Part shown: positions 7,835 to 30,618 of the stretch, piece by piece
Position numbering within the stretch: position 1 is the stretch's first letter
Layout: each line of letters begins with the position of its first letter
Source of the DNA: a virus
Taxonomy: Duplodnaviria; Caudoviricetes
Length of the DNA: 39,500 nt
Reading direction: 5' to 3' (one strand)
IMG/VR virus record: IMGVR_UViG_3300037311_000303
Span: 1-39,500 of that record
The notes under the pieces: model-generated
The model's database searches: none
Told to the model about the DNA's origin: nothing
Seen by the model: only the letters and a program-made list of their open reading frames with translations
Program-made: the position numbers and the translations under genes

Positions 7835-8332
7835 TCAGTCCGTTTTGAATCCATCGAATTCGAGCCAATCGGTTTTCGTCGAAATCACGCCTCTGCTCGT
7901 TTCGATCTCGATCTGTATCTGGTACTTAGCGTACCCCCCGCGCCTTTCTGGAAGCACGCAGTCATTAAAAGCGAAAAAAAGGCTTTGCGACTTGAACCAC
8001 GGACTCATGTAAGAGTGATCCTTAGTGACCCGCACGATTCTTCTATCTTTCGGCCACCTACTTCCAGAGATCCGATCCGCCGGATGGCGGGGCAGATTTT
8101 CCTTGTGGCATCCGACGACCTCTCCGCGCGAATTCATCACTAACACGCTTGCGAAAGCGGCGGGGAATCCGGGGCTTGGCGACTCCGTTTGGTATGCATC
8201 GAATTTAATTTTTCGATTTGTTTGCACGACAACCCGAAATTCATCTTTCGACTCATCCACTTCGATCGTCACTGACTCCCGTGGAGCAGCGGTCAGCGAC
8301 GCGAGCAAGATCGGTATCAGTAACATTTTCAT
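7835..8332 (-). CDS. Putative immunity protein of the Rhs toxin, with an N-terminal signal peptide
   Basis: Likely start ATG 8332 (MKMLLIPILLASLTAAP) overlaps the toxin stop (ATGA). Visibly lower GC than the RHS core; 165 aa. Confidence 0.75.
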   Translation of the reverse strand: MKMLLIPILLASLTAAPRESVTIEVDESKDEFRVVVQTNRKIKFDAYQTESPSPGFPAAFASVLVMNSRGEVVGCHKENLPRHPADRISGSRWPKDRRIVRVTKDHSYMSPWFKSQSLFFAFNDCVLPERRGGYAKYQIQIEIETSRGVISTKTDWLEFDGFKTD

Positions 8333-11300
8333 CTCGTTTGCCTCCAGTATTCGGCATCTGCTCCATCCCAACCATTTTCCACGCGCTTCTGGGTCGTTTT
8401 CGATACTCCACCATCAGGCGTGTCGTAGAGGACAGTGCCTGATGCCATCGTAACGACTCCAGGCGCGGTTAGCGTTGCAGCATGCTTGATGTATCCATTC
8501 ACACGGTAGATCACCATGTCACCTACCATCGGCGACTGTACGCGCTGCAAGATATCCGGGTTCTTCTTTGTGAACTCGGCAAACCACGGATTGAAGTCTG
8601 TTTCTTCAATCCAATACTCCACATTTCCGATTGCGACCGAGAAGCAGTCAAAATCCCACTCCAGCTTTCCGGTTTCATTCTTATAGGCGGTCAACCGACT
8701 CCCGTCCACCATGACCAACTGTCCGCGACGCATTCTGGCCGACTCAGAAAGTTTGCCAGACGCCCTAAGCTCGGTGGTGTTTTTCTCGCCGGCAAACACA
8801 GGCCTTCCCTTCTTGTCGCGCTTCACCAAATCCACCCGATTCTCGGGCGTGGCTGCTGCTTCGACCTCACCGGCGCCATTATCGTCGCCGGATAGCATGC
8901 CACCGTTTTCGGTCCAGTTGTCGCCAGCATCGTTCGGCCCACCGCCAGAGCCGCGACCGACCCGATCACTTGAATTCGACGCTACGCCCTTGTCGTTAAG
9001 CGCCGCAGCCTGCTCCTTGCGACCCACACCGGTCACACCCGTCGGCACCGCGCCACCGTTCTCGCCACGCGACTTGTTGTCCGCAGCGATCGCGCTGAAG
9101 GTCGCGCCGGAGGCCTTCACCGACAGCTTGCCGTCCTTGCCGACCTTGTAATCGACGTTGTGCTCTTTGCCGTCGGATGTGGTGAAGGTGCAACTGCCGC
9201 TGCCTTTTTCCTTCGCGCTGACATCGCCGCAGGAGGCGGCGTAACCTGTGGGGTCGGTGCCCGAGAGCGGATTGTTCGCGATGTAGGAATAAGGATTCAG
9301 CGACTGGCTGTTGAGCGGATTCTGGATCAGCGGATCGACGCCGGTGAAGCGGCCGAGGTTGTAGTCGAACACGCGCCCGTTCATGTGGATCAGTTCGAGC
9401 TGGTTCAGATGCTCGTGCTGCGTGAAGCCCTTCGGCGTGACGTTGGTGCTCCCGAGTTTCGGTGGCGTCAGATCGGACCAAGTGCCGCTGCGCGGTTTGC
9501 CGAACGCATCGTAGCCGCGTGTTTCGGTGATGGTGCCGGCACTGCTCGCGACGGCATCGACGCTGCCGAGGCGATCTTTCAACAGGTACTCGACCTTGCG
9601 CGAGTTGCCTCCGCCACTGGTGATCACCGCATAGTCGCCAACGTAGATCTTGATCTCGTTGGTGTCGATGCGATGTTCGTAGCCGGGCAGATACACGCGC
9701 GATCCATCGCTGCCCCAACTCCGCGTGCGCTGACCATCGGCGCCGTAGCGGAAGTCGTCGCGGTTCGCACCGCGCTGCGCCACCGTCGGCAGATTCATGT
9801 GGTCGTACTTGATCGACAATCCGGCGTTGTCGCTGGTCAGATTGCCGTTCGCGTCGTAGCAGTAGGTGCGCGTGGTGCTGTTGGCCAGCGTCACCGACTT
9901 CACGGCATTCGCGCCGCCGCCGCAACTGCCGCCGGTGTACACGTAGGCGTTCGCCGCATTGCTGCTGAAGTCGGTCTTCTTCGTGAAATTGCCGACCGCA
10001 TCGAAGCCGTAGTTCACCGTACCGGATGCCGCACCACTGCGGATCGCGCTGACGATGCGGTGCAGCTGATCGTAGCTGTAGTCCTCCTGACTCTGGCCGG
10101 CATTGAGCGTCTGCCGCGTCAGATTGCCGAACACGTCATAGCCGTAGCCGAGCTTGCGCAGGTCGCTGCCGTTTCGGCTGTAACGCAGTTCGGTGAGCTG
10201 GCCCGTTTGCGTTTGGTACTGCGGGTTCAACACGACCCCATTGCCGAAGGTTTCCTGCAGGGTTTGGCCGCGCGCGTTCACGCTGCCGAGCCGTCGGTAC
10301 TCGGTGCCGAGGACCGGATCCTTCTCGGCCACCGCATTGCCGTAAGCGCTGTACACCAGTTGCAGCGTTTCGCCGTTGGGATACTCCTGCCCGACCGGGC
10401 GCCCGTAATAGCTGTCGTACCGGGTCTTGAAGCGGTAGCTCTGACTGCCGGTGGTCAGGGCTTGGGTGATGTCGGTCTGGATCGGACGCGCGAGGCTGTC
10501 GTAGACCGTGGCCTTCGACCGCTCGACGACGCCATTGATCGTGCGCTGCTCGCTCGCCGGGGCACCCTTGGCATTCGTCGGGTCGTAGGTCCAGGTATCG
10601 ACCACCGGCTTGGTCACGCCATCGCCGGTCGCATCCGCCGTCGCGCTGCGGGTGAGCGTCCGCCCCAGCTTGTCGTAGCTCATCGACGTGACGATGCCTC
10701 TGGCGTCGGTTTGGCTCAACAATTCGCCCAGGGCGTTGTAGGCGAAGCTCCAAGTGCCCTGGTTCGGATCGACGATGCTCGTGCGCTGACCGATGGCGTT
10801 GTAGACGGCCTGGGTGACGACCGCCTTCGCGTCCTCGATCGCCACGACGTTGCCTCTGGCTTCGTACCAGAACCGGGTTCTGCCGTTCAGTGCGTCGCGC
10901 GTCTCGACATAGCGGCCTGCGCTGTCCGTCGTCCGCGAGAGGTTCAGACAGTTGCCGGCACCCCCATCGTTGCTGCCGCAGACCTGGATGGTTGTCGTGC
11001 GCCCGGCGTAGCCGTAGGTCGTGACCATGTCGCCGCGCCCGTCGATGCCCTGCTTGGGCACCGTCTTCTTCGTCATCCGGCCCAGCACATCGTTGTGCTC
11101 GAACGTCGTCCAAGTCCAGTCCGGCTCGCTCCTGCGCGGTTCGGATTGTCGCCAGACCTGGCCGCGCGCCGTGTACTCGGTCAAGGTACGGGTCCACTGC
11201 CCATCCATCTGCGTCTGGGCCTTCGTCCGCAGGCGCCCCAGCGCATCGAACCGCACCTCGTTCACCGGTGCGCCGTCCTGCACCGTGGTCAATCGATACA

Positions 11301-14300
11301 CCTCGCCCGGTGCGCAGGTACTCGGCAGACAGGCACTCACCGCCAGGTGCTGGTCCGGCGTGACCATCACACTGTCGGTCGCGCCGCGCAGGCGCTTCTT
11401 GATCGCGAAGCCGAAGGCGTCGTAGTCGATCAGCGTGCGTAGGCCGTTGGCGTCGATGGTCAGACTCGGCTGACCGTCGCGCGCGCGCACCACGTTGCTC
11501 GCGCCATGCCCCAAGGCGTTCGCCACCGTCTCGGGGAAGTACCCATCCGCGCTGAAGGTGGTGCCGACGCTCCTCGTGCCGTTGGGATCGCCCGCCGCGC
11601 TCACGCCCACACCCGAGGGTAGACCGTAGTTGTTGCTCGCGGGATACGTGTACGCGGTGACGCGCTGCTGATTGGCGATGCCCGGCTGCACCGTCTCGGT
11701 CGACGGCGTGCGGTTCGTGTTCCATCCGTAGTCGGTCGTGACGGTGATGAACGGGGTGCTGGTGCCCGCTGGCAGAGGATGCTGCGCCGTGTCCCACACC
11801 ACCTTGGTCTTGACGACCGTCCTGGTCAGCTTGTCGAGCCACCAGTCCGCCGTGGTTGTTGTGTACGTGTTCGCCTCGCTCACGCACTGGCGATCGAGCC
11901 GGTTCGCGGTGCCGCTGGCGCTGCCGGCGCCAAGATCGCGACGATGGGTCGTGCGCGCCCTGAGATTGCCGTAGGCGTCATAACCGGAGGCCGTGGCAAA
12001 GGTGCCGACACAGGTGGTATCGGCCGCCGCAACTTCCTGCGTGTAACCGAGAATGGCTGGCGTGCCGCCCGTTGCCGCGGTCGTCGCGTCATACGTCCAC
12101 GCTTCCTTCGTGTCGAGGAACGGGAAGATCTTCTTCGGCGTGCCGTAGGTCGGCGTACACGCGGCCGTATCGGCACGGTTCGCGAGGTTGCAGCGCCATG
12201 CATACGTCTCGCGGCTGATCGCGCCGTCCTCGCCCGCGCGTGAGATCGGATTGACGACGATCCGTTCTGGCTGGCTGGTCAGCGGGAACTTCTGGTGAAA
12301 GGTGGTTGTGGTGCGCAGGCCGGCGGTCTCGTCCTCTTCGATCACGGTGCGGAAGCCCTGGAAGCCTCGGCCCTGCGTGTTGTAGATGGCCTCGCCATAG
12401 CCGTAGCGCCAGGTGCGGAACCCGCCGATCCCATCCGACTGACTCATCTGCGCGACGACGCTCATCGACGAGGTGAAATAAATGTGGCGCTCGTCGATGT
12501 AACGCTGCGACGCCACCATCGGCACGCTGTACAGCGGCGTTTGTCCCGCCGAGCGTCCGGCCTTGCCCGCCAGTGGTGCATAGCTCCACACCGTTTGATG
12601 GCCGAGGCCATCGGTGACCATGCCGAGCACGTCCTGCGTTTGCGGCGTGAGACCATCCAGATTCTTCGCCGCGCCGGGGCCGGTGGCTTCGCTGACCAGC
12701 ACGCGGCCGGTGAGAATCGGCAGGCCGCCAGGCAGCGTGCGCGGGGACTGCGTCTCCGAGATCGGCGTGCCGTCGCCTTTTTCGACCGGGATGCCGAACA
12801 CATCGCGCAGCCCGAACTCCGGGGAGGTCAGCATCAGGTGGTCGCCGTGACCGTCGCCATACAGATCGTCGCCCGGCAGATTCGCCGCGCCCGAGAGCAA
12901 GGGCGTCGTGACCGTGGTCACCACCGGTGTGCCGTCCGCCGCCTCGGTGATGCGCAATGCGCTCATTTTGTAGGTGCTGTAGTCCGGCCACCCGCTCTCG
13001 TGCGAGCCCACCGTAACCGCGCCGTGCCAGACATTCACTTCGGGATGCCCATCGTCGTTCAAGTCGCTGGCGACACGCGTGACGACCGGGGGCGCCGCAC
13101 CCGTCACCGGGTCTTCCGGGCACACCCAGCGCTCGGAACCAGCCGTACACAACTGGCCCATGCCCATCTGCGTGCAGGTTTCCATGTTCTCCGGCTTGAG
13201 CACGCACATATTGGCGGCGAAGCCAGTCGGGAACAGCAGTTCCGAACGGCCGTCGCCATCGATATCACTAGGCCGCAAATGCTGCGCCTGCCAGGGCGTC
13301 CACACGTGCGCGCACAGCGATTGCGACGTGCTGTCGCTGCTGCCGCACCCGGCGAGGCCCGCATTGACGCCGAGGTTGTAGATCGTGCTGAACACACCGC
13401 CGCGGTTGTAGCGCAGTTTCCAGGTCTTGTCGTAGCCCACATACAGCCAGTCGTCCAGGCCGTCGCCGTTGACGTCCATCCACAGCGCGAACAGGCCAGA
13501 TTTGTTTTCATGCGCATCGCGAGGCTGCGCCGCCGGGAATACCGAAGCGAACGGCGTACTCGTGAGGCTGTATCCGGCCGCAGTGCGCGTGCCGAACAGA
13601 ATACGATCCAGCTTGCGGCCCTGCGGGACATACGGGGTCCACGCTTCGAGCGCCGACTCGATCAGGATATCGGGCAAACCATCGCCGTCGAAGTCCTTCA
13701 CGCCCTGGACTTCCTCGCCCTCGTACATCGCGTCGCCGACATGCGGGACGGACAGGCAGTGACTCGCCGCTTGCGGAAATGTCGGTGCGCCCGTCGCCGG
13801 GTTGGTGGCGTTGGGCGTGTTGCGATAGACATAGAGCTTGTTGGCGCAGCTGCCCGCATTGGACGATTCGCTGCGGACCAGGACGAGATCGGCACGACCA
13901 TCGCCGTCCATATCGCCGACATGCATGAGGCCATCGACGGCGCTGGTCGTGCCCGGAACCGTGATTCCGGTATCGATCAGATTGCCGAATGCGGTGGTGA
14001 AGTTCGTATCGGTGGGTGACCCGCTCCAGGTGCGGACCACGATCCGGCCGGTCGCGGTTTCGCGGCCGACGAAATCCACGCGACCGTCCTGGTTGAAGTC
14101 TGCCGACTGCCCGAAATGATGGATTGCATAGGTCCCAGGCACCGTCATCGACCAACGCACCGTGCGATCGGGCGTGAGCGAGACGATCGTGCTGTAATCG
14201 ACCAACACCTCCGTCGCACCGTCGCCGTCCATATCGCCGAGCGGTCGAATGTTGCCGTTCTTGGCCCCGATCGACTCGGGGATGAGATTGGGCGCCTTCA

Positions 14301-17352: not shown

Positions 17353-17542
17353 ACCGCCCCCTACTTGGTTGATTGCGATGCGATCCTGTCCCGCGAACGC
17401 CTACGGTGTTCGCTCGACGGACCTGCCTGTTCGTTGATTCACGCGCCCGCCGCGACATCGTGCGCCGCGGGCCTCTCATCGCCTGCGACTGATGCGGTAC
17501 TCATGGCGTGGCGGTCGCGACGCCACCTGTTGTCATTCGAGA

Positions 17543-17902: not shown

Positions 17903-17942
17903 GGAATTCGGTCCTTGGGATTGATCTGAGATGCGGTCGCGT

Positions 17943-20900
17943 TCAACCACCGCCACCGCCACCGCCGCCATCTCCACCCCCACCGCCATCGCCGTTCGGC
18001 CCCGAAGCGGGCGCCATCGTGCGCGCACCAATACGCATCACTGGGCCGGTGGAGGTGACGACATCGACATCCATCGTTTCGGCCTGAGCTTGCGCCTGTG
18101 CCTGTTGCTGCTGCAGAGACTGCATCGCCACGCGCGATACGTCCGAGGATTGTTCGATCGATGCGACGGACAGGGACTGTTGGATGTCGACCGGGGCGAG
18201 CCGATTGGCGGGGCTGTCGAGCGGGCCGTGGACGGCGATGAGTTTCGTGCCGTCGTTGTTCATCACCACCGCGTCGACCTGCGGTGTCGGAAATCGATCC
18301 GATTGCGACAGCGCCTGCGCCACCAGTCCGGCGGCGAGCGTTTCTTCCTGGTGCTGCGTGAACGTTCCGGCGGGGATGTTGAGTGAGGTGCGCAACGCGT
18401 TCAATGCTTGCGCGTACATGGCGTGCGCGGGGTGCGCCGACTGCGTCACCAGCGGCGCGGACGGCGCCAGGGCGGGATCGGCAGCGCCTGCCTGCGCCGG
18501 GACATGACCGGGTTGGCGCTCATCGTCGCGGTCGCCCCGCGAGACCGCGCGATGCGTGAGGGCGGGGTCGGCGACGGACGGCGTCGCAGGCGGCGCGTCG
18601 GCGCGCGCGACGGGCGTGCGTTCGGGCTCGGATGAGGTGTCGGCGTCGCGTCCGGTGGACGACGACAAGCGGACAACGGGCGTTTCGTTCGCAGGCTCAT
18701 GCGCCTCGCGGGCCGACGTTGCTTCTGACGATGGCGAGCGGTCCGGGCTGCCCGGTTCGCTGCGTTCCCGTTCGCGCTGCGCCGCCAGGGCGTGATCCAC
18801 CGCCTGGCGCGTGTCCTGGTCCGCGATGCCGGTCGCGGGCAGGCCATGCAGGGTCTGGAATTGGCGGACGGCGTGTTCGGTTTCGGGGCCGTACTGACCG
18901 GTTTGCGGGATCTGCTCGCCGTCCGGCCCGCGGTAGCCCTGCCGGTCCAACCGGGACTGCAGCAGTTCGACCTGGTCGTTGCGATCACCGGGCCGCAGGG
19001 CATCGGCAACGTCCACTGCCGGTGCGCCGGTGGCCGGGGGCATGGTCTGTGGTGCTTCGCGATCGACAGGGGCCGTTGGAGCGATCTCGCTGGCGCGGTT
19101 CGGCAACGGATCGGCCTGTGCGACCTGAGGCGCGGGTTCCGGTGTCGGTTCCAGGTGCCCGGCGGCGGGCGCCGACTCGGTTTCCGGCGAAGTCTGCGCC
19201 CGCTCGGCGGTGTTTGTCGAAGGTGCGTGATCGGCCTGCGCGCGTTCGCGTGCCTGCTGCGCGGCCTCGTCGTCGCGTGCGACCTGCGCCAGGCTCGCCA
19301 CCGCGGCGGCCTACGCGTGGTTCTGCGCCGCAGGGGTGTCCTGCGCGCGCTCCCGTGGCGTCTGCGGCGCGTCGGTCGCCTCAGTGGCGGCCTCGCGCGG
19401 CGTCGCCGGCCCCAGCGAAATCACGCGCACCGTGGCGTCGAGGGTTGCCGCATAGGCGACCTGCTGTGTTTCGTCGCGGGACAGGCCCTCGCGGTTCGCC
19501 TCGCGCGTAGCCTGCTCACGGGCGTCCCGCGCCTCCGGCGACAGTGGGCCGATGCTCCGCTCAGGCGCCGCCTGCATCGGTGTGTCCACGTCGCCCGAAC
19601 CGGATGTCCGAACGTTGGCGGCGAGCGCGATGTCACCCGGCCGCGTCGTGGCGACGACCTGCACCACGCCATTCGCGTCGAGTTTCGTGTGCTGAATCGG
19701 GCTATCGAAGCTGTAGCTACCGTTGACGTCGCGATCCAAGGCGAACGCCGTGGTCCCCAGGGCGATTCCGTGCTCGGCGCGCGTGCGCTGCACGGCCGCG
19801 TAAGTCGCCTCGAACTGCTCCGGTTTGATATCGGGGTTCCAGCGGTTGTCGAGGTACACGTCGCGCAGCAGTGCGCGGTCGGATTCCTCTGGCGTCGGCG
19901 GCTGCCACGAGGGCATGCTCGCCAAGGTCTGCTGGTGGAGGTCGAGCGCCGGCACTAGGCGCTCGCGGGTCAGCTCCAGTTCCAAGGCGCGATTGGCGGA
20001 CGCCACCTCACCCTCGTGCATCCACACGCCCTGCAGATCGCGCTGGTAGTGCTTCCCATCGGAGGCTTGCAGCAGATCCGGGGACAATGCAGCGGCGACG
20101 GCGTCCGGCACTTGGCCGGGATAACCATAGGCCCTGTGTCCGACCTCATATCGCGCGGCGATCGCCGCAGGGCCGGCCTTGAGGTTGTCGTCGATAACCG
20201 CCATCGCCTGCGCACTGAGCTGCGCGGCACGCTCCGGACTCGCGTACTCAGGCTCGGACTCCCAATCGGTCATGTCGCGTCGATCGACACCATTGGCGAC
20301 TTGCCTCGACCAACGGCCGCTCTCCGCGCTGTACGTCCAATCCGTCACTTCAAGATGCGCCGGATCGCTGCCGTTCTTCGGTTGCACGAACGGACTGCGT
20401 GGCTCCGGCGCCTTGCCGAGCGCCTGCTCCGCCGCTTCCACGCTGGCCAGATGGCTCAGCTCGCGCGCCTTGTCAGGCTGCGCCGAAAACGATTGTCGGT
20501 GCGCGACCGACTGGCCATCGTCCACCAAATCGGCGCGCAGATCGTCGCGAATCCACTTGCGACCGTTGAATTCCCACTCGACGCCGGCTGTGTCGGTCTG
20601 GGTGTAGATCTTGTCGTTCTGCCACATCATCACCGCACGCTCGGCCGCCTTGCCGAACACATAGCCTTCGGCGGCGACCAGCACGAGCGTGCCGCCGGAG
20701 CCTGTGCCCAGCGCGGTCGCGGTGGCGGCGCCCGCAACCGTCCCGGCCATTGCGCCGGTCGTCTGCGCCGCTTGGCGCGCATAGGCATCGTCTGCGGCAG
20801 TCTCATTGCCGAGCGTATGCTTGAACACCTGCGCGCGCTGGTGGGTGTCGCTCCACTCGATTCCGGTCAGGGCGGCGCTGACCGCGAAACCGCCGATCGC

Positions 20901-22199
20901 GGCCTTCGTGCCCGCAGACAGTGATCTCGGTGGTGAATAGGGCTCCAGCTCCACATTGGGATTGCGCGCCAGCCTTGCCATCAGGCCATCTGCACCGGCC
21001 TGCTCAGGCGGCGCTACCTGCAGCGTGCGTTCCACCGGGCGCGCTTGCACGTGGAAACGCCGCGCCATGTCGTTCGCAGGTTCCGGCGCCTGCTCGAACA
21101 CATGCACCACCTGCCCCGGCCGCGTCGCATGCGTCATGTCCGGCGTCAGGCGCGTGATCTCGCCCTCGGGATTGGCGCGATCCACCATGCCTGTATATCT
21201 GAACTTCCAGTTGGTGTGCGATTGGTGGACGACGTTCATTCGCGGATCGTCCGTCTCATGCAACCGCTGAAACAGCGGCTGGCTCGACAGCGCGTTGTGG
21301 TAGTCGGTCATCAAATTCATGCTGCGGTCGGCCAGACCGCTGCGCAGATACCAACCCCCGACATCCGCATGCACGCCGGATACGGTCACGCTCAGGAACC
21401 GCCCGTCCGCCGACAATCCCTGCGGAATGATGCGGTCCACCGGAAATGGCTTGCGAAGTTCGTCTGCGGAGTTGATCTGGAAGCCCGACACCACGGACGG
21501 CGGCAGACGCCGGTCGATCAGCTCTTGAACCCCCGTCGGCACCGGGTCGTAGAGCCCGACGGACATGGGCGTGCGACCTGCCGGCTGGTGAAGCCGGCTA
21601 AATGATCGCGTGACATGGCCGCCATCGTCGATCTGCTGGACTTCGGTTTTCAGATCAGGAATGCCACGCTCGTCAATCAGTCGCGCGACCATCGGCACGG
21701 TGCTGGCACCGCGGCTGAAGCCTTCAAGGTGAATGCTGATTTTCGCGTCGGGGTCTTTTTCGTAGATTGTTTGCGCCTGACGCACCAGCTTCCAGTACAT
21801 CTCCTCTGCGCGGTCTAGAGCGGTAGCGCCAGTTCCGCCATCCAGCGAATTGGTGACGAAGTTGGTCTGGGTGCCGGGGCCGGGGACGTATTCGTAACCG
21901 ACATTCCTGACGCCCGCTTCGTTGAGACTTTCGATCTGACGCTTGAGTCTCGCGACGTTGGTCGGATGAAGCGGGTCTTGCGTGACATCGTTGCCCGTCC
22001 CGTCCAGAAGCGCGAAAATCATGTAGGAATGGCGATCCCTCGGATCCCATAGCGCGGGTGCCTTGAACTGGCGCATCTGCTCTGCGGCGCGCTCGAAACT
22101 GCGGAGTTGCTCTTCCGACGCCCCCACATGCGGCACATCGTCATAGGGCAGACCATCTTCGACCAATCGGAAGGTCGTCTTGCGATCGTTGTTTCCCAT
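17943..22199 (-). pseudogene. X-T4SS effector (DUF2235/Tle1-type phospholipase, PG-binding domain, XVIPCD) interrupted by one in-frame TAG at 19311-19313
   Basis: ORFs 19311-22199 and 17943-19301 share a frame (…AQNHA*AAAVASLAQ…). N-part: LLDGTGND, EGFSRGA, GLYDPV, GVHADVGG. C-part: LRPGDRNDQVELLQSRL...YGPETEHAVRQFQ (PG-binding) and HPAHAMYAQ...VVMNNDGTKLIAVHGPLDSPANRLAPVD...EQSS plus a Q-rich tail (XVIPCD). Confidence 0.85.
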
Positions 22200-22212
22200 C
22201 CCACTGGCTCCG

Positions 22213-22749
22213 TCAGTAGGTCTTCGTCCATGCCAACATCAAATCGCGCAGGCTGTCGCTGTTGCGAACAGCAGGATCGCGCGGCTGCTTTAACAGCACC
22301 CATGCGCGCATATACACGTTGATCTTTCGATCACTGATTTCCAGCAGAATCTGAACATCGCGCGCATGATCTCGAGTGCCCCAGTCCTCAACGACTTCAG
22401 CTTCAATGGCCTTATGCAAAATTAAACGTTGAGGGAAAATGGCTTCCAAGTCGATTTCGGCTGAATGATCGACGCCATCAAGCGATGTCCAGCGAACCAA
22501 AACTGGCGGAGGAAAAACTCTGTCGGATGAGACCGAATGTCCAGCCCTCCAGTCATCTTTCCAATCTGAAGCGTAAGGCTCGCCAGTAGGCGAAAGCTCT
22601 GCGTTTTCCGATAGTTGGTTCGTGTTATCGAAAATGACGACGGCGCGCAGCGTGTTATAGGCCCTCGCCCCAAAGCTGAACGAATCGAAGCGCAGCGGCC
22701 ACAATTCGCTGGATGCGTCGTCCCCGTCTTTTCTTCCGAATATGGACAT
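22213..22749 (-). CDS. Putative cognate immunity protein (X-Tfi) of the DUF2235 effector
   Basis: Directly upstream of the effector (13-bp gap), the usual X-Tfi position; WPLRFDSFSFGARAYNT...FPPPVLVRWTSLDG...EIDLEAIF...INVYMRA; lower GC. Confidence 0.7.
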   Translation of the reverse strand: MSIFGRKDGDDASSELWPLRFDSFSFGARAYNTLRAVVIFDNTNQLSENAELSPTGEPYASDWKDDWRAGHSVSSDRVFPPPVLVRWTSLDGVDHSAEIDLEAIFPQRLILHKAIEAEVVEDWGTRDHARDVQILLEISDRKINVYMRAWVLLKQPRDPAVRNSDSLRDLMLAWTKTY

Positions 22750-22891
22750 GTGAATTCATTCCTGCAGTTTGTTGTGTGATCTTGGCGGTGCGGTCAGATC
22801 GGCTTGGCCTGCACCAACGCATTGTCGAACGAAAATCAGCATCTGATTGGTCGCGCGCAGTGAAATTTCACTCGCTTGATGCATATTTCCG

Positions 22892-23077
22892 CTATTTCCA
22901 GATGTTCCGTCCGCCACGACCAGTCAATAGCAAGGCGAGAAAGATCACGCCAGGGATCACGAAGATTGGCGAGGCCACGCCAATCATGATCCCAAGAGAA
23001 AATCCGAATAGCCACATGGCGATCGGCGTTACGATGGCGATCATCAATATGACCCAATATCTCAGCTTCATTGCCAA
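22892..23077 (-). CDS. Small two-TM membrane protein
   Basis: 61 aa, almost entirely hydrophobic (YWVILMIAIVTPIAMWLFGFSLGIMIGVASPIFVIPGVIFLALLL). Confidence 0.55.
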   Translation of the reverse strand: MAMKLRYWVILMIAIVTPIAMWLFGFSLGIMIGVASPIFVIPGVIFLALLLTGRGGRNIWK

Positions 23078-23423
23078 CCATCATTTCATGTCAGCGCGTT
23101 ACATTTCCGTCAACCAGTGCAATTGCACTTTTCCGACGTCTCCAGCCGTTTTTAGCGTTCAAATTCAGCAGAATCCAGCAGACGAAATCCTGCCATGATA
23201 GTACTTGATGCTTTCGCAAAATTCCGACAGAGAGAGGCCTTCGTTGAAGCTATCCCATCGTCAAGAGCAATCACCATCAATGCTTCCTTCATGTCGCGCG
23301 CCGCCCTTCCGAGCCGCCCATTGATTGGAACCGCGTCTTGCAGTCTCACATGAAGAAATACAGCACGATCCCGAACGCGACGCGCGCCCAGAGCAGCACG
23401 ACATCGGCGACGATCTCGACTCT

Positions 23424-23450
23424 CGTCCTGTCGTCCTGGAAACGTCCTTG
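23424..23450 (-). promoter_or_regulatory. Three tandem CsrB-type GGA motifs just after the third CsrA-like gene
   Basis: Minus strand CAAGGACG-TTTC-CAGGACG-A-CAGGACG; the CsrB repeat consensus is CAGGA(U/C/A)G. Confidence 0.5.
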
Positions 23451-23465
23451 CCGGCGAGTGCGCAA

Positions 23466-23867
23466 TCAATGTCGCTCCATTCGCGGGTCGGGTTCCCCGC
23501 GTTGTATCCGCTGATAGATCTCTTCCCGGTGTACGGGCACCTCACGTGGAGCGTCGATGCCGACCCGAACCTGTCGGCCGCGTGCGAGGTCGAACCAGCC
23601 GCCGAAGGAGCCGCTTCCAAACGACACGACGACCTCCTCGCCGATCCGAAGGGAATCGCCCACCATCACGGCGATGAGATATCGTTTGCCGCGACGGTGC
23701 CGCCGACGCGCGGGACTGACCGGCATGTCGCAGTCATCAGTGATTGCGATGTTCGACGGCACAGCCAGCGCGACCGTAAGGTGCGCACGCAGTTTCGAGA
23801 GGATCGTCAGGCGCATGTTGTCGCCGATGCGAATGCTTTCGCCGACACGGCGGTTCAATATCAACAT
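23466..23867 (-). CDS. csrA: CsrA/RsmA-family protein with an internally duplicated domain (paralogue 3, best conserved)
   Basis: N-terminus [23 protein letters not shown]; second repeat [15 protein letters not shown]...[24 protein letters not shown]; 133 aa, about twice CsrA. Confidence 0.9.
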
Positions 23868-23873
23868 GGGCTG

Positions 23874-24251
23874 TCAACCTGCGCGACGGCGAGCGCGTTG
23901 TCGAGGGCGATATGGCGCCTGCCGCACGACCGTCAACGGTGACGGCGAGTCAATTTGCAGGCGCACTTCGCGCAGTGCGCGCGCGTTCTCCATGCGCAAT
24001 TGCACTGCCTCCACGGTGATGCCAACAGGGCCGATGGAGAAAGTTTCGCCATCGCGTAGCGCCAGGATGTGCGCACGCCGCCGGATACCGGACGGGGCGC
24101 TGGCGTGGAACCCGCCGACGCCGCCCAGCTCGTGTCGTGACGCGGCGTCGATGAAGACGTAGAGCGTTTCGCAATCTCGCCCGGTAAAGTTGAGACGAAT
24201 GTCGGCGCCGAACTGCAGAGATTCGCCCACGGTGCAATCGAAGACAGGCAT
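23874..24251 (-). CDS. Divergent tandem CsrA-like protein (paralogue 2)
   Basis: MPVFDCTVGESLQFGADIRL...; second repeat LALRDGETFSIGPVGITV...EVRLQIDSPSPLTVVR; its ATG abuts the upstream TGA. Confidence 0.7.
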   Translation of the reverse strand: MPVFDCTVGESLQFGADIRLNFTGRDCETLYVFIDAASRHELGGVGGFHASAPSGIRRRAHILALRDGETFSIGPVGITVEAVQLRMENARALREVRLQIDSPSPLTVVRQAPYRPRQRARRRAG

Positions 24252-24680
24252 TCAGGTGGCCCCGAAAAGAAGCCGGCCCCCGTCGTCCTCAACCTGCAAC
24301 AGGGGGACTGCAGGGGTGACGGGGGCCGACCGGGGGCCAAGTTGCGCGTCGCGACCACATCGCGCGCAGGCGGGCGTGACGCCGATATGCAGCCACTCTT
24401 CGCAGTCGGCTGCATGGGGGACCAATTCACCGGGGAGCCAGATGCTCACCTCGAAAGGGCCAATGCGGAAGCGTCGCAGGGCTTGCAGCGAAAAGAAGTA
24501 GGTCCAGACCCCGATCGTGCTCGAAGTCGGGCGGACGGACGCGCCGCCCAGGATCAGGTCCGTGCCTGCCGGCACGGTCACATCCACGCAGACCCGCTCC
24601 CCCTCTCGGCGGCGGATCACGATCCGTGTGTTGTCGCCGAGGCGCAGTTCGCGCCCGATTTGGCATGTCTCGACCAGCAT
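24252..24680 (-). CDS. Divergent tandem CsrA-like protein (paralogue 1)
   Basis: Likely start ATG 24680, MLVETCQIGRELRLGDNTRIVIRRREGERVCVDVTVP; second repeat RRFRIGPFEVSIW...WLHIGVTP. Confidence 0.65.
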   Translation of the reverse strand: MLVETCQIGRELRLGDNTRIVIRRREGERVCVDVTVPAGTDLILGGASVRPTSSTIGVWTYFFSLQALRRFRIGPFEVSIWLPGELVPHAADCEEWLHIGVTPACARCGRDAQLGPRSAPVTPAVPLLQVEDDGGRLLFGAT

Positions 24681-24684
24681 CCTG
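24678..24684 (-). promoter_or_regulatory. CsrA consensus site CAGGATG overlapping the start codon of the first CsrA-like gene
   Basis: Minus strand GGTTGCAGGATGCTG; GCA-GGA-TGC can form the typical short hairpin with GGA in the loop. Confidence 0.45.
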
Positions 24685-24779
24685 CAACCCTCTTTTGCCA
24701 CTTACGGCAGGAGGAAAGGGTCGCTCTTAGCGCCAAAAAAGAAAATTGGGAAAATTACGAGGACTATGGGACTAGACGC

Positions 24780-25469
24780 TCAAGCGTCGCGTGGCTCATC
24801 ATCCAGCTCGTGCAGCAGTCCATTGCTATAGATGTAAGGCAGCAAGTCAGAGCCGTCGCGCAGGCCAAGCTTATTCAATCCGTTGTACTTGTGTGTCGTA
24901 ACGGTGCTATAGCTGCGTCCTGTGGAGTCCACAATTTCGTTGGCCTTCGCGCCGCGGCAGAAAGCAACGAGCACGGCCCGTTCGCTGTCAGTAAGTGAAG
25001 TCCAAGCATGCTTGCTCAAGCCGTCAAGGTTGATGTGGCTATCAATGTAGGCTTGGTCATTCGCAACCGCAGCGAAGGCTTTGACTAACTCGGATGTGGG
25101 ACTGATTTTTGCGACATAGCCCAGTGCGCCAGCATCCATGACGGCGCGGGCTAGGAAGGCGCTTTCGTCGGCGGTATAGACGAGCAAGCGCAGATTCGGA
25201 TCGGTTGCCAACAAGGCGCGCACCAACGCGACACGTTTGAGGCGACCGGGCATCACAAGGTCGAGTATGACAATTCGCGGCGAGTTGGACGGCTGGGCAC
25301 ATACGTCAAGCAATGAGGCACTGGTATGAGCTGTCAAAAATCGTGAAGCCACAACGCCGAGTAGATCGGCAAGCATCTGGCCGACGGCAAGAGTTACAGA
25401 CGGGTGGTCGTCAGCGATGATGTACGTGAATTCAGCAAAAAGACGTTCGGGAGAAGTGTTTTGATTCAT
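24780..25469 (-). CDS. NarL/LuxR (RcsB-like) response regulator
   Basis: REC domain: IIADDHP, VILDLVMPG, VYTA, GYVAK. HTH: LTDSERAVL...GRSYSTVTTHKYNGLNKLGL. Confidence 0.92.
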   Translation of the reverse strand: MNQNTSPERLFAEFTYIIADDHPSVTLAVGQMLADLLGVVASRFLTAHTSASLLDVCAQPSNSPRIVILDLVMPGRLKRVALVRALLATDPNLRLLVYTADESAFLARAVMDAGALGYVAKISPTSELVKAFAAVANDQAYIDSHINLDGLSKHAWTSLTDSERAVLVAFCRGAKANEIVDSTGRSYSTVTTHKYNGLNKLGLRDGSDLLPYIYSNGLLHELDDEPRDA

Positions 25470-25705
25470 GGTTGTAGATTCATTTCGACTATGCTGCGCT
25501 AAGCCAGTGCGATCTGTCGCGATACTGTCGTTGGCTTCTTGAACAACTTGAGCGAGTGGTAGGCATAGTTATACTCTACATTGTAGCGACAATGATAATG
25601 TGGAAGTCATGTGGAAAAGCAAAAGAGCGCAATGATTTTCGCCAACTACTCTGATGAAAATCGAGGCCGTACAAATTTTGTTGTTGCGAATATCCAAATT
25701 AAATT
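25470..25705. promoter_or_regulatory. AT-rich divergent promoter region between the response regulator and the kinase
   Basis: Non-coding, AT-rich gap between head-to-head genes. Confidence 0.55.
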
Positions 25706-27838
25706 ATGTCGAATCGCATAGAAAACGCACCTTTGTCGCTCGTGCAGATCGCCTCTTCGCTACGCGACAACGTTCTTGAGGCAGCACTCTCCGGATATCG
25801 AGAACCAGAGATTGCGCGGTTGCGCGTCTATGGTCTTCTGTTCGCGGCAGCATGGGCACTGCTGTGGTACTTCTTAGGGCCAACAAACATTCCGCGCACG
25901 CCTCAGTGGTGGAATTACCCCCAGGCGGTTGCCATATTGCCCCATGTGCTGGTGATGTTGGCACTCGCCCTCTCATGGTGGTTCGCCATTCAGCGTAGGT
26001 GGATTCGATCATCGCATTGGATTGACGCGCTAGGTGCGATCGCAAACATAGTAGGGGTTGCGATCCTGCTGAACCGCGCGTTCGATCTGATGATCGCGTT
26101 CATCTGCTACTTGCCGATCATCTCAATCACCGTGGGCGCCCGGTTCAATAGACCGCTACTTTATGGAACGATTTTAATTTCTGTCGTCGTTGTCTTGACC
26201 GCGCCTTCTGATCCGAACTATTTTGCGATTAGGCCACACTTTGCTCTTTTTGCGGCGACATTGTTGGTGATGATGCCGTTGTCCGTCGTTCGGCTTTTGA
26301 ATATCGTCCGTGCTGTTTCGGAAGTAGCCGTAAGGTCGCGCGATGCACAGTCACAGTTCATTGCGACGATGAGCCATGAACTACGAACGCCACTGAATAG
26401 CGTCATCAATAGCGCCGTCCTGATTGATGTTGAAAAAATGCCCGAAAGCCAGCGGCAGATTGTTGATGCGCTACTCAGCTCTGCAAATGCGCTTCGTCAT
26501 CGCGTCAATGAAGTGCTTGACGTGCGCATGATCGAAGCGGGCTCGTTGTCAATTCTCTCCGAGCCATTTCGGATATCATCGCTTCTCAAAACTATTCGAG
26601 ACATGGCCGAACCGCTGGCACTGGCTAAGAACATCGAGCTTCACGTTGCCTCAGATGAAGTGGCCGACCTGGTTTTGCAGTCCGATGCGACACGACTTGA
26701 ACAGGTGATTACAAACCTCGTCACAAACGCGGTCAAGTTCACGCCGGAAGGTGGGAAAGTAGAGCTTCGAGCAGAACGGGACGGCTTGGGGACTAATGAG
26801 CGCATCCCTGTCCGGTTTTCCATCGCCGACACAGGACCTGGTATTCCTGAAGAGGACCTTGAGAAGATATGGCTACCATTCCATCAGCTTAGCTCCGGTA
26901 GTGCGCGCCGACACGGAGGCGTAGGGCTCGGTCTGTTCCTTGTGAAGTCCATTCTTTCGTATATCAACGGCTCGGTCGAATACGCGCCACGCGCTGGAGG
27001 CGGCAGCCTCTTCATAGTTCGACTGACGTTCAGCCGCGCCGCTCCAGGAGCGCTAGCAACTCCAAACCTTACTTTTCAGGAAGCGGTCGAAGAACATCGC
27101 AAGCACACACCACCAATGCGATGCCTAGTAATTGACGATGCGACCAGCAACCTTGAAACAATTGATCGGCTGCTATCCATCGCTGGACATACGATATCCA
27201 GGGCGCTTAGTGGGAAAGAGGGGCTCGTGATGGCCCGCGAGGGAAGATTTGACCTTATTCTCCTGGATCTGCATATGCCCGACCTTACAGGTAACGATGT
27301 ACTCGGCATGCTGCGGGCAGAAGGCATCATGTCTACGACACCCGTCTACATGCTTTCCGCAGATGCATCGCCTGAAGCAATCAGAGATGCGGAGGCGCTT
27401 GGCGCTCTCGGCTATCTCACCAAGCCAATCAACTACATGAAATTGTTGGCGTTGCTGGAAACCGTTGCAGTCATTGCTAAGCGAGCGATATCAATGGACT
27501 TCGCCGATGATCGGTTGACCGGAATCGCGCTTATTCAGGAGTCTGCGGGCACAGAGTCGGCTAGGCAGTTCGCAGACAAGCTATTCATGGAGATAGACAA
27601 CGAATGCAGATTGCTTCTTGAAGCTTTTGCATCAGAGGACATTCATGGTGCAGCCGATCGAACGCATCGTATAAAAAACTTGTTGCTCAATGCTGGGGAC
27701 ATCAAGGGTGCGGACCTCTGCGAGGGCTTGCGGAACCATCTCAAGCTCGGTGATCTGAGTATGGCAGCAAGCATGATGGAGCGGCTTGTATCGCTCGTCG
27801 ACTCGACGCGCGCGCGCGCGTTAAGCGCGTTGAACTGA
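25706..27838 (+). CDS. RpfC-like hybrid sensor histidine kinase (multi-TM sensor, HisKA, HATPase, REC, HPt)
   Basis: About 5 TM segments; MSHELRTPLN, NLVTNAVKFT, DTGPGI, PFHQ, GGVGLGL; REC VIDD..LLDLHMP..LSAD..LTKP; C-terminal THRIKN (HPt). Same domain order and similar length to Xanthomonas RpfC. Confidence 0.9.
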   Translation: MSNRIENAPLSLVQIASSLRDNVLEAALSGYREPEIARLRVYGLLFAAAWALLWYFLGPTNIPRTPQWWNYPQAVAILPHVLVMLALALSWWFAIQRRWIRSSHWIDALGAIANIVGVAILLNRAFDLMIAFICYLPIISITVGARFNRPLLYGTILISVVVVLTAPSDPNYFAIRPHFALFAATLLVMMPLSVVRLLNIVRAVSEVAVRSRDAQSQFIATMSHELRTPLNSVINSAVLIDVEKMPESQRQIVDALLSSANALRHRVNEVLDVRMIEAGSLSILSEPFRISSLLKTIRDMAEPLALAKNIELHVASDEVADLVLQSDATRLEQVITNLVTNAVKFTPEGGKVELRAERDGLGTNERIPVRFSIADTGPGIPEEDLEKIWLPFHQLSSGSARRHGGVGLGLFLVKSILSYINGSVEYAPRAGGGSLFIVRLTFSRAAPGALATPNLTFQEAVEEHRKHTPPMRCLVIDDATSNLETIDRLLSIAGHTISRALSGKEGLVMAREGRFDLILLDLHMPDLTGNDVLGMLRAEGIMSTTPVYMLSADASPEAIRDAEALGALGYLTKPINYMKLLALLETVAVIAKRAISMDFADDRLTGIALIQESAGTESARQFADKLFMEIDNECRLLLEAFASEDIHGAADRTHRIKNLLLNAGDIKGADLCEGLRNHLKLGDLSMAASMMERLVSLVDSTRARALSALN

Positions 27839-27842
27839 GGCC

Positions 27843-28406
27843 ATGCCGATAACTCTCGCGAAGATCGTTGCCATTGTTGGCGTACTGCTCGCCGGCATTC
27901 TTATCGTTGCCGCTCACCGTCGACGGCCTGACCTACCGGCGTTTGAGGTTGCTTTGTCGGTCTATTTCACCGCTCCTACGCGATCTATCATGCATTGTGC
28001 GTATGCAGCGATCGCGACAGCGCTCATTTCTGTTGCTTTCCTGCTTGCGTTGAATATGAGCATAGCTTCTTTAGCGGTAGCTGTGGCCTGTTGCATTGGC
28101 TCTGCGCTTCTGGTTCCCGTTGTAGTGACGACACAGCGCGACGCAATGATCGTCCGAAGCGATGAAATTAGACGCGCACATCGCTATGCGGCTGCAGTTG
28201 CCTTTGCGTCGGTTGGAGTGGCGATGGCTGTCTCAGTATTCGCAGCAATAGTGAAATCCAATGTAGTCGTTCCGATTCTTGGTGCAGTTGGCGCTGTGCT
28301 TGTGAGCTTGGTTTTACGAAGTCGCCCGGGCCCCACGCATGGCCTGCGACAGAAACTCTTTCTGTTCGTTCTTGGCTTGTGGATCATAGCCATCGCAACC
28401 AACTAA
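27843..28406 (+). CDS. Multi-TM membrane protein (DUF998-like)
   Basis: 187 aa with 5-6 hydrophobic segments; LSVYF...MHCAY and AHRYAAAVAF; begins 4 bp after the kinase stop. Confidence 0.7.
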   Translation: MPITLAKIVAIVGVLLAGILIVAAHRRRPDLPAFEVALSVYFTAPTRSIMHCAYAAIATALISVAFLLALNMSIASLAVAVACCIGSALLVPVVVTTQRDAMIVRSDEIRRAHRYAAAVAFASVGVAMAVSVFAAIVKSNVVVPILGAVGAVLVSLVLRSRPGPTHGLRQKLFLFVLGLWIIAIATN

Positions 28407-28407
28407 A

Positions 28408-29016
28408 TCAGCTTGGCCCCTTTGCATCTCTGGAAAGGGCATGTCGAAAGTTCCTAACTAGCAGCGTGGCAGCACTAGCAACAGTCATGAAATCCTGTGC
28501 CAAGACCGATCGTGGAACGGAGTGGCTTGCGTCAAGTCGCAACTGTTCGCATCCTTTCAACAGTTCGCGCGATCCAGTTGGGGCAATGGCGTTCTTCAGG
28601 CTATGGATCTGTTCGAGTAGTTGTACGGTAGTAGTTTCCGGGTCCTCGATCGTACAGGTGGCGATGGCTTGCTTAATTTCACTCGCCACGGCGTCGGCAT
28701 AGGTTATCGCAGTCGATGGATTGAGAACTGCAATCGTTTCGAGCGCCGAGCCCGGTTCGATCCGGGGTGATCCGCATGATTTTCCAGATGGACGCTCGAC
28801 TTCAGGTATGCCTTTGTTGGCGCCTATCGTCTCTAGAAACTTGGCGATTATGGAAGCCATTGACCCCAACCCAGAATAGGCCAAAGCAGCCCTGCTCAAT
28901 CTTACCGGGTAGAGGGGCGAGCCTGTAACGATACCGCTCTCAAACATCTGCATGTAGCACTCACGGCAATTGCGACGAAACGCACAAATTTGATCAGTGA
29001 CGAATTCGGCGTCCAA
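28408..29016 (-). CDS. Stand-alone HPt phosphotransfer protein (start uncertain; ATG 28860 plausible)
   Basis: LLEQIHSLKNAIAPTGSRELLKGCEQLR matches the HPt pattern H-x-L-K...G...L...C..L. Confidence 0.7.
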   Translation of the reverse strand: MDAEFVTDQICAFRRNCRECYMQMFESGIVTGSPLYPVRLSRAALAYSGLGSMASIIAKFLETIGANKGIPEVERPSGKSCGSPRIEPGSALETIAVLNPSTAITYADAVASEIKQAIATCTIEDPETTTVQLLEQIHSLKNAIAPTGSRELLKGCEQLRLDASHSVPRSVLAQDFMTVASAATLLVRNFRHALSRDAKGPS

Positions 29017-30588: not shown

Positions 30589-30618
30589 TCAGGGCTCCAT
30601 GAGCGTGTGGTGTCGGTC

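What the first reader, a model, noticed from the sequence alone, without database searches (positions are those of the whole stretch)
7835..29016. Candidate system: prophage-borne signal sensing, CsrA triad and antibacterial toxins as one regulated module
Seen: RpfC-like kinase, HPt and LuxR regulator sit next to the CsrA triad. The regulator, triad, X-Tfi/X-Tfe pair, exported protein and Rhs toxin/immunity are all co-oriented and run down to the terminator at 7744, between the integrase and the phage genes. Known: hybrid kinase to NarL-type regulator to Csr/Rsm is the logic of GacS/GacA-Rsm and BarA/UvrY-Csr, which control secreted weapons. Inference: the element carries its own compact Gac/Rsm-like circuit with an RpfC-type input that gates toxin expression and possibly the lysis-lysogeny decision. 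Adjacency alone does not prove co-regulation.
Basis: inference. Interest (0 to 1): 0.8.

Follow-up and report, generated by a model that had tools for sequence, protein, structure and literature searches.

The report
Swappable-input CsrA cassette heading prophage toxins
A prophage of an uncultured Lysobacter-like bacterium carries three fused, CsrA-shaped genes and a tiny predicted membrane peptide directly in front of antibacterial toxin genes, a cassette that recurs across the genus behind a phage-type repressor but here sits behind a swapped-in sensor kinase and regulator, so it likely works as a plug-in switch that times toxin production.

Summary
All named genes are present. The reading as one fixed Gac/Rsm-like module does not hold. 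The conserved unit is smaller: 1-4 tandem, single-chain CsrA-fold genes plus an unannotated 39-codon hydrophobic peptide (23346-23465), found in 34 of 43 genomes of one genus. Upstream, 68 of 77 loci carry a divergent CI-like repressor, nearly always with a MASE1 pseudokinase and a secreted protein; only 3 of 77, the window included, carry the kinase/regulator, joined at a sharp breakpoint in the first Csr gene. Downstream, toxin-type cargo follows 36 of 40 peptide-bearing loci and 0 of 19 peptide-less ones (related loci, not independent). Only the last Csr gene keeps one complete RNA-binding site (66 of 67). No Rsm-type sRNA was found, the kinase is RpfC-derived but lacks the DSF motif, terminators insulate the cargo from phage genes, and the window's X-Tfe is split by a stop. 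Best reading: a prophage moron whose swapped two-component input drives a Csr-plus-toxin operon; Csr3 likely tunes translation. New variant of the Legionella lvrRABC/CsrT design.

The parts
29654..29684 (-). Last upstream copy of a repeated phage motif CTTGGCTTC-N8-ACAGCGCGTTCATG (promoter-like, inferred); other copies 30619, 31445, 31734, 32219 and 7477
   Evidence: 6 matches, 0 expected in 100 shuffles; repeat family D4
29031..29062 (-). Intrinsic terminator closing the phage early-gene transcript before the cargo
   Evidence: 12-pair stem + T run; z -5.1
28408..29016 (-). Stand-alone HPt-like protein (HSLKN motif; start codon uncertain)
   Evidence: No Pfam hit; weak match to kinase-family HPt; 83% identical copy in L280
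27843..28406 (+). DUF998 membrane protein; also present in repressor-type relatives L162, L241, L265
   Evidence: PF06197 E 3e-7
25706..27838 (+). RpfC-derived unorthodox hybrid kinase (TM-HisKA-HATPase-REC-HPt), phosphorelay residues intact, DSF motif not kept
25470..25705 (.). AT-rich divergent promoter region between kinase and regulator (TATAAC kept in 3 of 3 copies)
24780..25469 (-). REC + LuxR-HTH response regulator occupying the input slot of the cassette
   Evidence: 96% and 93% copies in G001 and G432 only among 43 genus genomes
24681..24779 (-). 99-nt regulator-to-Csr1 spacer; predicted hairpin covers the Csr1 ribosome site (not significant, z -1.0 to -1.8); no TTGACA
24252..24680 (-). 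Csr1: tandem CsrA-fold protein, Arg6 replaced by Cys, no VHREE helix; swap breakpoint lies in its first ~40 nt
23874..24251 (-). Csr2: tandem CsrA-fold protein, Arg6 replaced by Cys, helix lost
23466..23867 (-). Csr3: single-chain two-repeat CsrA with one complete predicted RNA-binding surface (beta1 of repeat 1 + VHREE of repeat 2)
23346..23465 (-). Unannotated 39-codon ORF (TTG start right after the Csr3 stop): basic N-terminus, hydrophobic C-terminal helix; marks toxin-linked cassettes; cargo changes right after its stop
22892..23077 (-). 61-aa hydrophobic ORF, variable slot (53% copy in L166)
22213..22749 (-). Putative immunity protein (X-Tfi by position only)
   Evidence: precedes the lipase effector in relatives; no family hit
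19311..22199 (-). 5' part of X-Tfe: Tle1-like phospholipase domain (GFSRG); ends at an in-frame stop
   Evidence: PF09994 E 7e-16; split shown
17943..19301 (-). 3' part of the same X-Tfe: PG_binding_1 + XVIPCD secretion signal, same frame as the lipase part
   Evidence: PF01471, PF20410
17543..17902 (-). Small exported protein (signal peptide by eye)
   Evidence: 89% copy in L162
8329..17352 (-). 3007-aa Rhs/YD polymorphic toxin with N-terminal hydrophobic signal, 7 Ig repeats, TcB-like shell domains and a Cys/His C-terminal domain (amidase-like, weak)
   Evidence: Amidase_6 E 0.11 only
7835..8332 (-). Putative Rhs immunity protein with signal peptide, ATGA overlap with the Rhs stop
   Evidence: no family hit
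7744..7772 (-). Intrinsic terminator ending the cargo transcript
   Evidence: z -6.4, 0 of 200 shuffles
5638..7507 (-). Phage motif copy (7477-7507), DUF2924 and large serine recombinase, outside the cargo

Best explanation
The block is a terminator-bounded prophage cargo in which a recently swapped-in kinase/regulator pair likely drives transcription of an operon that starts with three single-chain CsrA-fold genes and a predicted membrane peptide and continues into antibacterial toxin/immunity genes, with Csr3 predicted to tune translation through its one intact RNA-binding site. Shown: gene order, terminators, the swap, the tandem fold, residue pattern, and the peptide-toxin association. Inferred: an unknown membrane-borne signal activates the RpfC-derived kinase, phosphate passes His-Asp-His to the regulator, and the regulator turns on its own promoter, which reads into csr1-csr2-csr3-peptide and the toxins. 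In most relatives the same job is done by a CI-like repressor sitting over a strong sigma70-type promoter, with a MASE1 pseudokinase as likely sensor; that module is the immunity region of other temperate phages, with the Csr genes in the place of cro. Csr3 would bind single GGA sites in cargo or host mRNAs; Csr1, Csr2 and the peptide would modulate it or feed back on the membrane sensor. In this copy the lipase effector is cut off from its secretion signal, so the Rhs toxin is the likely working weapon.
For: Cassette order is near-invariant: CI-like gene divergent from the first Csr gene in 68 of 77 loci, regulator in 3, none in 6 (5 lack upstream sequence). Window vs L001: 94-97% nt through most of kinase and regulator, about 70% from 24633 on. 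Window vs L162: colinear phage genes, triad and toxins, no DNA match in the input slot. Toxin-type cargo after 36 of 40 peptide-bearing and 0 of 19 peptide-less loci with enough sequence or a hit, across several clades, including two 70%-identity clusters that contain both states; XVIPCD background is 873 matches in 43 genomes, roughly 1 per 200 kb. Last Csr gene keeps Arg6 and the Arg44-equivalent of repeat 2 in 66 of 67 cassettes and lacks Arg44 in repeat 1 in 66 of 67; 0 of 85 upstream genes keep Arg6. Both halves of Csr3 match CsrA (HHalign 98.6% and 99.7%; model pLDDT 85). TTGACA on the Csr strand in 50 of 63 CI-Csr spacers. In 13 of 15 examined Csr-less phage loci the MASE1 module is followed divergently by Cro/Cox/Arc- or CII-like genes. 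Precedent: CsrA represses the bactericidal T4SS operon and an X-Tfe in X. citri (PMC7286519, abstract and passages).
Against: No expression, binding or knockout data. No conserved CsrA site was found in Tfi leaders (the window has CAGGAATG over the ribosome site; L162 and L164 do not). Full repression by CsrA needs two pockets in E. coli glgC (PMC7652899, passages), and Csr3 has one. 19 peptide-less cassettes precede housekeeping genes (trpGDC, glutamate synthase, Usp), so Csr genes persist without toxins. 4 peptide-bearing loci have no recognised toxin (L003, L244, L241, L246), and dropped locus L248 has an Rhs with neither peptide nor input module. Most XVIPCD genes of these genomes (8-35 each) lie outside cassettes (1-8 Csr matches each). 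A 17-kb single transcript is unproven; internal promoters may exist. Loci are related and partly redundant, so the Fisher p of 6e-12 overstates support.
Confidence: 0.5

Rival explanations
1. The Csr cassette regulates host genes on its own account; toxin genes simply land at a recombination hotspot behind the peptide gene and borrow the promoter or use their own.
For: DNA similarity stops right after the peptide stop and cargo differs locus to locus. Peptide-less cassettes are kept before housekeeping genes in many genomes. No conserved GGA target in cargo leaders.
Against: Cargo behind the peptide is toxin-type in 36 of 40 loci and of several unrelated kinds (X-Tfe lipases, ankyrin-linked X-Tfes, two Rhs classes, VirD4), against a background of a few percent; a neutral hotspot would collect other cargo more often.
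Confidence: 0.25
2. Csr3 (or the trio) is an anti-CsrA: a one-site mimic that occupies GGA sites or pairs with host CsrA subunits, lifting host CsrA repression of the chromosomal killing T4SS and toxin mRNAs so that the cargo's effectors get delivered.
For: One-site architecture is invariant; single-pocket CsrA dimers repress poorly (PMC7652899 passages); host CsrA represses the X-T4SS in X. citri and relief raises killing (PMC7286519); all 43 genus genomes have XVIPCD effectors and 39 have VirD4; some cassettes are followed directly by a virD4 copy (L001, L002, L243).
Against: The virB leader of this genus was not examined: the sequence after chromosomal virD4 in 8 genomes led to another gene, with at most one ANGGA. 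A single chain that satisfies its own strands need not exchange with host CsrA. About half the cargos are Rhs toxins that may not use the T4SS.
Confidence: 0.15
3. One reading: a dedicated Gac/Rsm-like circuit with a DSF-type input controls toxins and lysis-lysogeny.
For: Kinase and regulator have intact phosphorelay motifs and domain orders like BarA/GacS and UvrY/GacA; sensor domain is homologous to RpfC (HHalign 95.6%); all 3 known copies of the pair abut a Csr1 gene.
Against: Pair present in 3 of 77 loci; no Rfam hit and at most one ANGGA per 130 nt in six intergenic regions; BarA 227 vs cut-off 890, UvrY/GacA 63 vs 280 bits; DSF motif not kept; one copy (L280) lies beside a DbpA helicase with no phage gene within 20 kb; terminators on both sides.
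Confidence: 0.07

Closest known systems
Legionella lvrRABC / CsrT module of ICEs and genomic-island T4SSs (PMC3864950, PMC7366521, PMC4471563; passages read)
   Same: An S24/LexA-type regulator gene next to a short gene run ending in a CsrA paralogue, placed at the head of secretion-related genes on mobile elements.
   Different: Here the Csr proteins are 125-150-aa two-repeat single chains, 1-4 per cassette; a MASE1 pseudokinase, secreted protein and membrane peptide are added; output is toxin cargo, not a conjugation machine; the input can be replaced by a two-component system. Homology to LvrA/LvrB was not tested.
GacS/GacA-Rsm and BarA/UvrY-Csr (PMC7652899, PMC7366521; passages read)
   Same: Unorthodox hybrid kinase, NarL-type regulator and CsrA-family proteins linked to secreted weapons.
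   Different: No sRNA sponge found; the regulator is placed to transcribe the Csr genes themselves; not orthologues by NCBIfam cut-offs; the pair is an occasional plug-in.
CsrA repression of the Xanthomonas citri X-T4SS virB operon (PMC7286519; abstract and passages)
   Same: CsrA-family control of XVIPCD-type antibacterial weapons in the same order of bacteria.
   Different: That is the host homodimer acting on a chromosomal operon; here paralogues travel with the effectors, and no target is shown.
RpfC DSF sensor kinase (PMC5391125; passages read)
   Same: Best full-length genomic matches are rpfC-like genes; TM region and TM-HisKA-HATPase-REC-HPt order are shared.
   Different: R15/D17/S18/Q22 equivalents not kept (only the Glu); partner is a LuxR-HTH regulator rather than HD-GYP RpfG; no rpfF nearby.
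Canonical CsrA/RsmA/RsmE homodimer (PF02599; PDB 1VPZ, 2MFC) and phage CsrA-like regulators (PHROG 9500)
   Same: Each half of Csr3 matches CsrA; L4, R6 and R44 are present in crossed arrangement.
   Different: One chain, one complete site; Csr1 and Csr2 are degenerate. Other tandem CsrA proteins exist in unrelated lineages, so the fusion alone is not unique.

Membership tests
Gac/Rsm (BarA/UvrY-Csr) cascade | Kinase and regulator orthologous to BarA/GacS and UvrY/GacA | tested here: not met
   NF008318 227 vs 890 bits; NF007018 63 vs 280 bits
Gac/Rsm (BarA/UvrY-Csr) cascade | Multi-GGA sponge sRNA under the regulator | tested here: not met
   No Rfam match in the window; at most 1 ANGGA per 130 nt in 6 intergenic regions, both strands. 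A host-encoded sRNA elsewhere is not excluded.
Gac/Rsm (BarA/UvrY-Csr) cascade | Homodimeric CsrA with two RNA-binding surfaces | tested here: not met
   Two-repeat chains; one complete surface in Csr3 only
RpfC/RpfG DSF system | Homologous TM sensor domain and hybrid architecture | tested here: met
   HHalign 95.6%, E 1.3e-8 over 134 columns that include the pre-H-box helix
RpfC/RpfG DSF system | DSF-binding residues R15, D17, S18, E19, Q22 | tested here: not met
   RpfC-like genes read R-x-D-[ST]-E-H-x-Q; window reads S-G-Y-R-E-P-E-I at the place matched by eye, outside the HHalign block
RpfC/RpfG DSF system | Adjacent rpfF synthase and HD-GYP rpfG | tested here: not met
   Neighbours are a LuxR-HTH regulator and DUF998
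CsrA/RsmA family (PF02599) | CsrA fold with beta1 Leu4 and beta5 Arg44 | tested here: met
   Csr3: PF02599 72.9 bits, two stretches; model halves match 1VPZ (49 residues, rmsd 1.6, Z 4.5)
CsrA/RsmA family (PF02599) | Binding to GGA RNA | not testable with these tools
   Needs EMSA or CLIP
Legionella lvrRABC/CsrT | S24/LexA-type regulator beside a gene run ending in a CsrA paralogue | tested here: met
   Met in 68 of 77 relatives; in the window itself the slot holds a response regulator
Legionella lvrRABC/CsrT | LvrA and LvrB homologues; conjugative T4SS genes downstream | tested here: inconclusive
   No virB/tra genes in the window; a lone virD4 in 3 relatives; LvrA/LvrB not compared
X-T4SS effector/immunity pair (X-Tfe/X-Tfi) | Toxin domain and C-terminal XVIPCD in one chain | tested here: not met
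   Split by a stop in the window; one ORF in 6 of 6 relatives
Prophage moron (independent transcription unit) | Own promoter region and terminator, variable slot among related phages | tested here: met
   Terminators at both ends; same slot holds different cassettes in L005, L162, L233; promoter activity itself untested

The most novel reading that the evidence does not exclude
A prophage immunity switch (CI + MASE1 pseudokinase + secreted protein) has been rewired into a plug-and-play weapons switch: interchangeable sensor cassettes on the left, a processor of one-site CsrA mimics plus a membrane peptide in the cro position, interchangeable toxins on the right. The one-site Csr3 out-competes the host's two-site CsrA and so switches on both the cargo toxins and the host's killing T4SS.
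Probability: 0.2. Interest if true: 0.82.

Novelty: new variant of a known kind. Interest (0 to 1): 0.6.

Why it matters
How mobile antibacterial toxins are timed with a host secretion machine is largely open, and CsrA paralogues on mobile elements have few known targets. This cassette gives natural swap experiments: two unrelated inputs on one processor, many cargos behind it, and a peptide whose presence tracks the toxins. It also points to an undescribed CI-MASE1-secreted-protein module in temperate phages of this order. The single-chain, single-site Csr3 is a natural test of what monovalent CsrA does.

Tried and rejected
Rsm-type sRNA: none. AGGA cluster after Csr3 first looked like a sponge; it is the coding sequence of the peptide. 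Hairpin over the Csr1 ribosome site: z -1.0 to -1.8, not counted. Csr1-Csr3 complex prediction: no answer, score 0.00. Fold searches gave no match above Z 8 and cannot compare a single chain with a dimer. No RNA holder listed among public runs. Regulator and kinase relatives in viral contigs: none close (0 confirmed of 30 stretches; 44 loci at 25-42% identity). Regulator at order level: 3 of 401 genomes, the 76% copy (G352) stop-interrupted beside a transposase with no Csr gene. Tandem Csr at order level: not found in 400 further genomes searched, only 10 candidates scored each. Nearness of some chromosomal cassettes to virD4 is not an operon link; housekeeping genes intervene in the one locus checked (L249). 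C-terminus of the 715-aa cargo in L003 did not align to XVIPCD, so it stayed 'no toxin'. Rhs C-terminal domain and HPt: no solved relative. One of eight Rhs seed fragments was translated out of frame; labels rest on the other seven. The tree is the quick, unfinished version. In 16 MASE1 loci from other genera no CI or Csr gene was adjacent by my profiles. Literature: nine searches listed no paper on this cassette; the library lacks most subscription journals and no supplements were read.
Full report
Setting. The window is a 39.5-kb virus record with no larger assembly. Right of 29.3 kb are small early-type genes and tail genes; left of 7.7 kb are DUF2924, a large serine recombinase and then non-phage genes. 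The contig ends inside structural genes, so the prophage's own repressor is not in view. Relatives with the same tail and recombinase genes lie in genomes titled Lysobacter sp. or Lysobacteraceae MAGs; the host is inferred to belong to that uncultured genus.

Observation. The cargo is bounded by two strong minus-strand terminators, 29031-29062 and 7744-7772 (z -5.1 and -6.4). A 31-nt phage motif occurs six times, five upstream of the cargo and one in front of the recombinase genes, none inside (0 expected). The block therefore has the anatomy of a moron. The lipase effector is interrupted by an in-frame stop at 19311-19313; the contig of the possible source run shows no difference there, while L162 and one low-depth contig from another study have a sense codon, and lipase plus XVIPCD are one ORF in 6 of 6 relatives.

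The triad. Csr3 (133 aa) is two CsrA repeats in one chain: HHalign to ordinary CsrA gives 98.6% for the N-half and 99.7% for the C-half; Csr1 and Csr2 align to Csr3 over most of their length (94% and 95%), though their second repeats alone match CsrA weakly or not at all. AlphaFold2 models are compact beta-sandwiches (pLDDT 85 and 79) and CsrA chains match one half of Csr3. In CsrA each RNA surface is beta1 of one subunit plus beta5 of the other, with L4 and R44 critical (PMC7652899, passages; PMC3791407, passages). Across 67 cassettes the last gene keeps R6 and the R44-equivalent of repeat 2 in 66, and has R44 in repeat 1 in 1; among 85 upstream genes none keeps R6 and 81 have Cys there, though 34 (mostly Csr2-type) keep an Arg at the R44-equivalent. 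So one complete site per cassette is predicted. Tandem CsrA proteins also occur in other lineages, and three earlier scan notes describe one-sided fusions elsewhere (unchecked leads).

A fourth gene. A 39-codon ORF starts with TTG directly after the Csr3 stop. It has a basic N-terminus and a hydrophobic C-terminal helix, keeps its exact length in 16 loci and differs mostly at third codon positions (139/90/234). A profile of it hit only Csr-adjacent places among 76,983 short ORFs of the fetched loci. It has no Pfam or PHROG match.

Co-occurrence test. I collected 77 loci (window; 26; 50 fetched by handle; not all matches were fetched, and some loci are duplicates or near-duplicates). Input slot: 68 have a divergent HTH-S24 CI-like gene, nearly always followed by a MASE1 protein and a convergent small secreted protein; 3 have the kinase/regulator (window, L001, L280); 6 have neither, 5 for lack of sequence. 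By eye, the S24 domain has Arg where the catalytic Lys should be and often lacks the Ser (motif recalled), and the MASE1 C-terminus looks like a kinase without N-box (recalled), so neither SOS cleavage nor phosphorylation is expected. In the genus, tandem Csr genes are in 34 of 43 genomes, the regulator and the kinase sensor in 2 of 43. The window and L162 are colinear through phage genes, triad and toxins but share nothing in the input slot. The window and L001 are 94-97% identical through most of kinase and regulator (81-91% in the promoter) and about 70% from 24633 on. L280 carries the whole HPt-DUF998-kinase-regulator block at 87% beside chromosomal genes. The kinase/regulator is thus a mobile input cassette that joins at the start of Csr1.

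Output slot. Of 70 rows kept (dropped: L006, L007, L269, L280 at contig ends; L242 duplicate; L257 broken, peptide-less, no toxin; L248 degenerate, Rhs without peptide), 36 have toxin-type cargo (Rhs, XVIPCD, lipase, its immunity gene, or VirD4; L002 has VirD4 only) and all 36 have the peptide; 19 have neither; 4 have the peptide without recognised toxin; 11 are too short. Peptide-less cassettes precede trpGDC, glutamate synthase, Usp or unrelated genes. An independent scan anchored on MASE1 in viral contigs gave 30 loci: 10 with Csr genes (5 new), 8 of them with toxin markers and 2 cut short; the two without a peptide hit proved to have a diverged one. Against this, these genomes hold 8-35 XVIPCD genes each, so most effectors are not under a cassette.

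Origin of the usual input. In 15 Csr-less phage loci examined, 13 have Cro/Cox/Arc-like or CII-like genes divergent from the MASE1 module (L412 and L418 not scanned). The CI-MASE1-secreted trio is therefore an immunity-region module of temperate phages, and the Csr genes stand where cro normally stands. CI-Csr spacers carry TTGACA in 50 of 63 cases, with lineage-specific palindromes near the promoter seen by eye. This is the only link to lysis-lysogeny logic, it is evolutionary, and it is the part the window has lost.

The kinase. Its sensor region defines a small family (20 clusters, some named RpfC by a source). The DSF-binding residues R15, D17, S18, E19, Q22 (PMC5391125, passages) are kept only at the Glu, by eye. 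The signal is unknown.

Mechanism and odds. Most likely (0.5) the regulator, 99 bp upstream and co-oriented with no promoter consensus between, is co-transcribed with csr1-3, the peptide and at least the first cargo genes, so the two-component system sets the level of the Csr proteins directly rather than through sRNAs; Csr3 then adjusts translation of cargo or host mRNAs. All regulatory steps are inferred.

Comparison. The closest design is Legionella lvrRABC/CsrT: an S24-type regulator plus a CsrA paralogue at the head of mobile T4SS genes (PMC3864950, PMC7366521, PMC4471563; passages). CsrA control of a plasmid colicin operon (PMC2896534) and coupling through a short upstream ORF (PMC5574718) were seen as search listings only. 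A term search of a 2026 survey of CsrA variants found no 'tandem' or 'duplicat' (PMC13443453). Nine searches listed no description of this cassette; supplements were not read and could hold such proteins. Verdict: real, not the circuit proposed, a new variant of a known kind; interest 0.6.

Noticed in passing
window 3-3511 (-): Type I Druantia genes at the left end: DruE1 (E 9e-273) and DruD1 (E 3e-8).
   Followed up: partly
window 4058-5137 (-): 359-aa ORF with no family hit, 95% identical in L005 right after the same recombinase genes; element end or shared attachment site unresolved.
   Followed up: no
window 7477-7507, 29654-32249: Six copies of CTTGGCTTC-N8-ACAGCGCGTTCATG upstream of small phage genes and the recombinase unit; also in 8 related phage loci. 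Likely a phage-specific promoter or operator.
   Followed up: partly
L404, L407, L409, L414-L417, L419, L421-L423, L426, L429: MASE1 pseudokinase + small secreted protein (QCC...GLG motif) co-oriented behind the repressor in the immunity region of lambdoid and P2-like phages; possible undescribed sensor or lysogenic-conversion module.
   Followed up: partly
L317-L333: The same MASE1 + secreted pair occurs chromosomally, sometimes duplicated, in other genera of the order without CI or Csr; 64 of 401 genomes match the profile, many weakly.
   Followed up: partly
window 24252-24680 (Csr1): Cys6 and His98 are nearly invariant and adjacent by CsrA topology, with Glu85 and Cys93 invariant in the close family: possible metal or redox site where RNA would bind.
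   Followed up: no
L081, L084, L169, L170, L173, L174 upstream: Cassettes also ride on a second element type with a large polyvalent protein (LPD39 + helicase).
   Followed up: no
L001:3429-5117, L243, L002; remnants in L081, L161, L240: A second virD4 copy directly behind the peptide gene, ahead of effectors, suggesting cargo-specific coupling proteins.
   Followed up: partly
L167 and L174 (one 63-kb contig): Two complete cassette + Rhs units about 15 kb apart in tandem.
   Followed up: no
window 29312-30588: Three small paralogous helical ORFs (o29312, o30029, o30313) with no family hit, shared by related phages.
   Followed up: no
window 39140-39460 and 38220-39140: Two overlapping ORFs match the same structural PHROG 687; not examined.
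   Followed up: no
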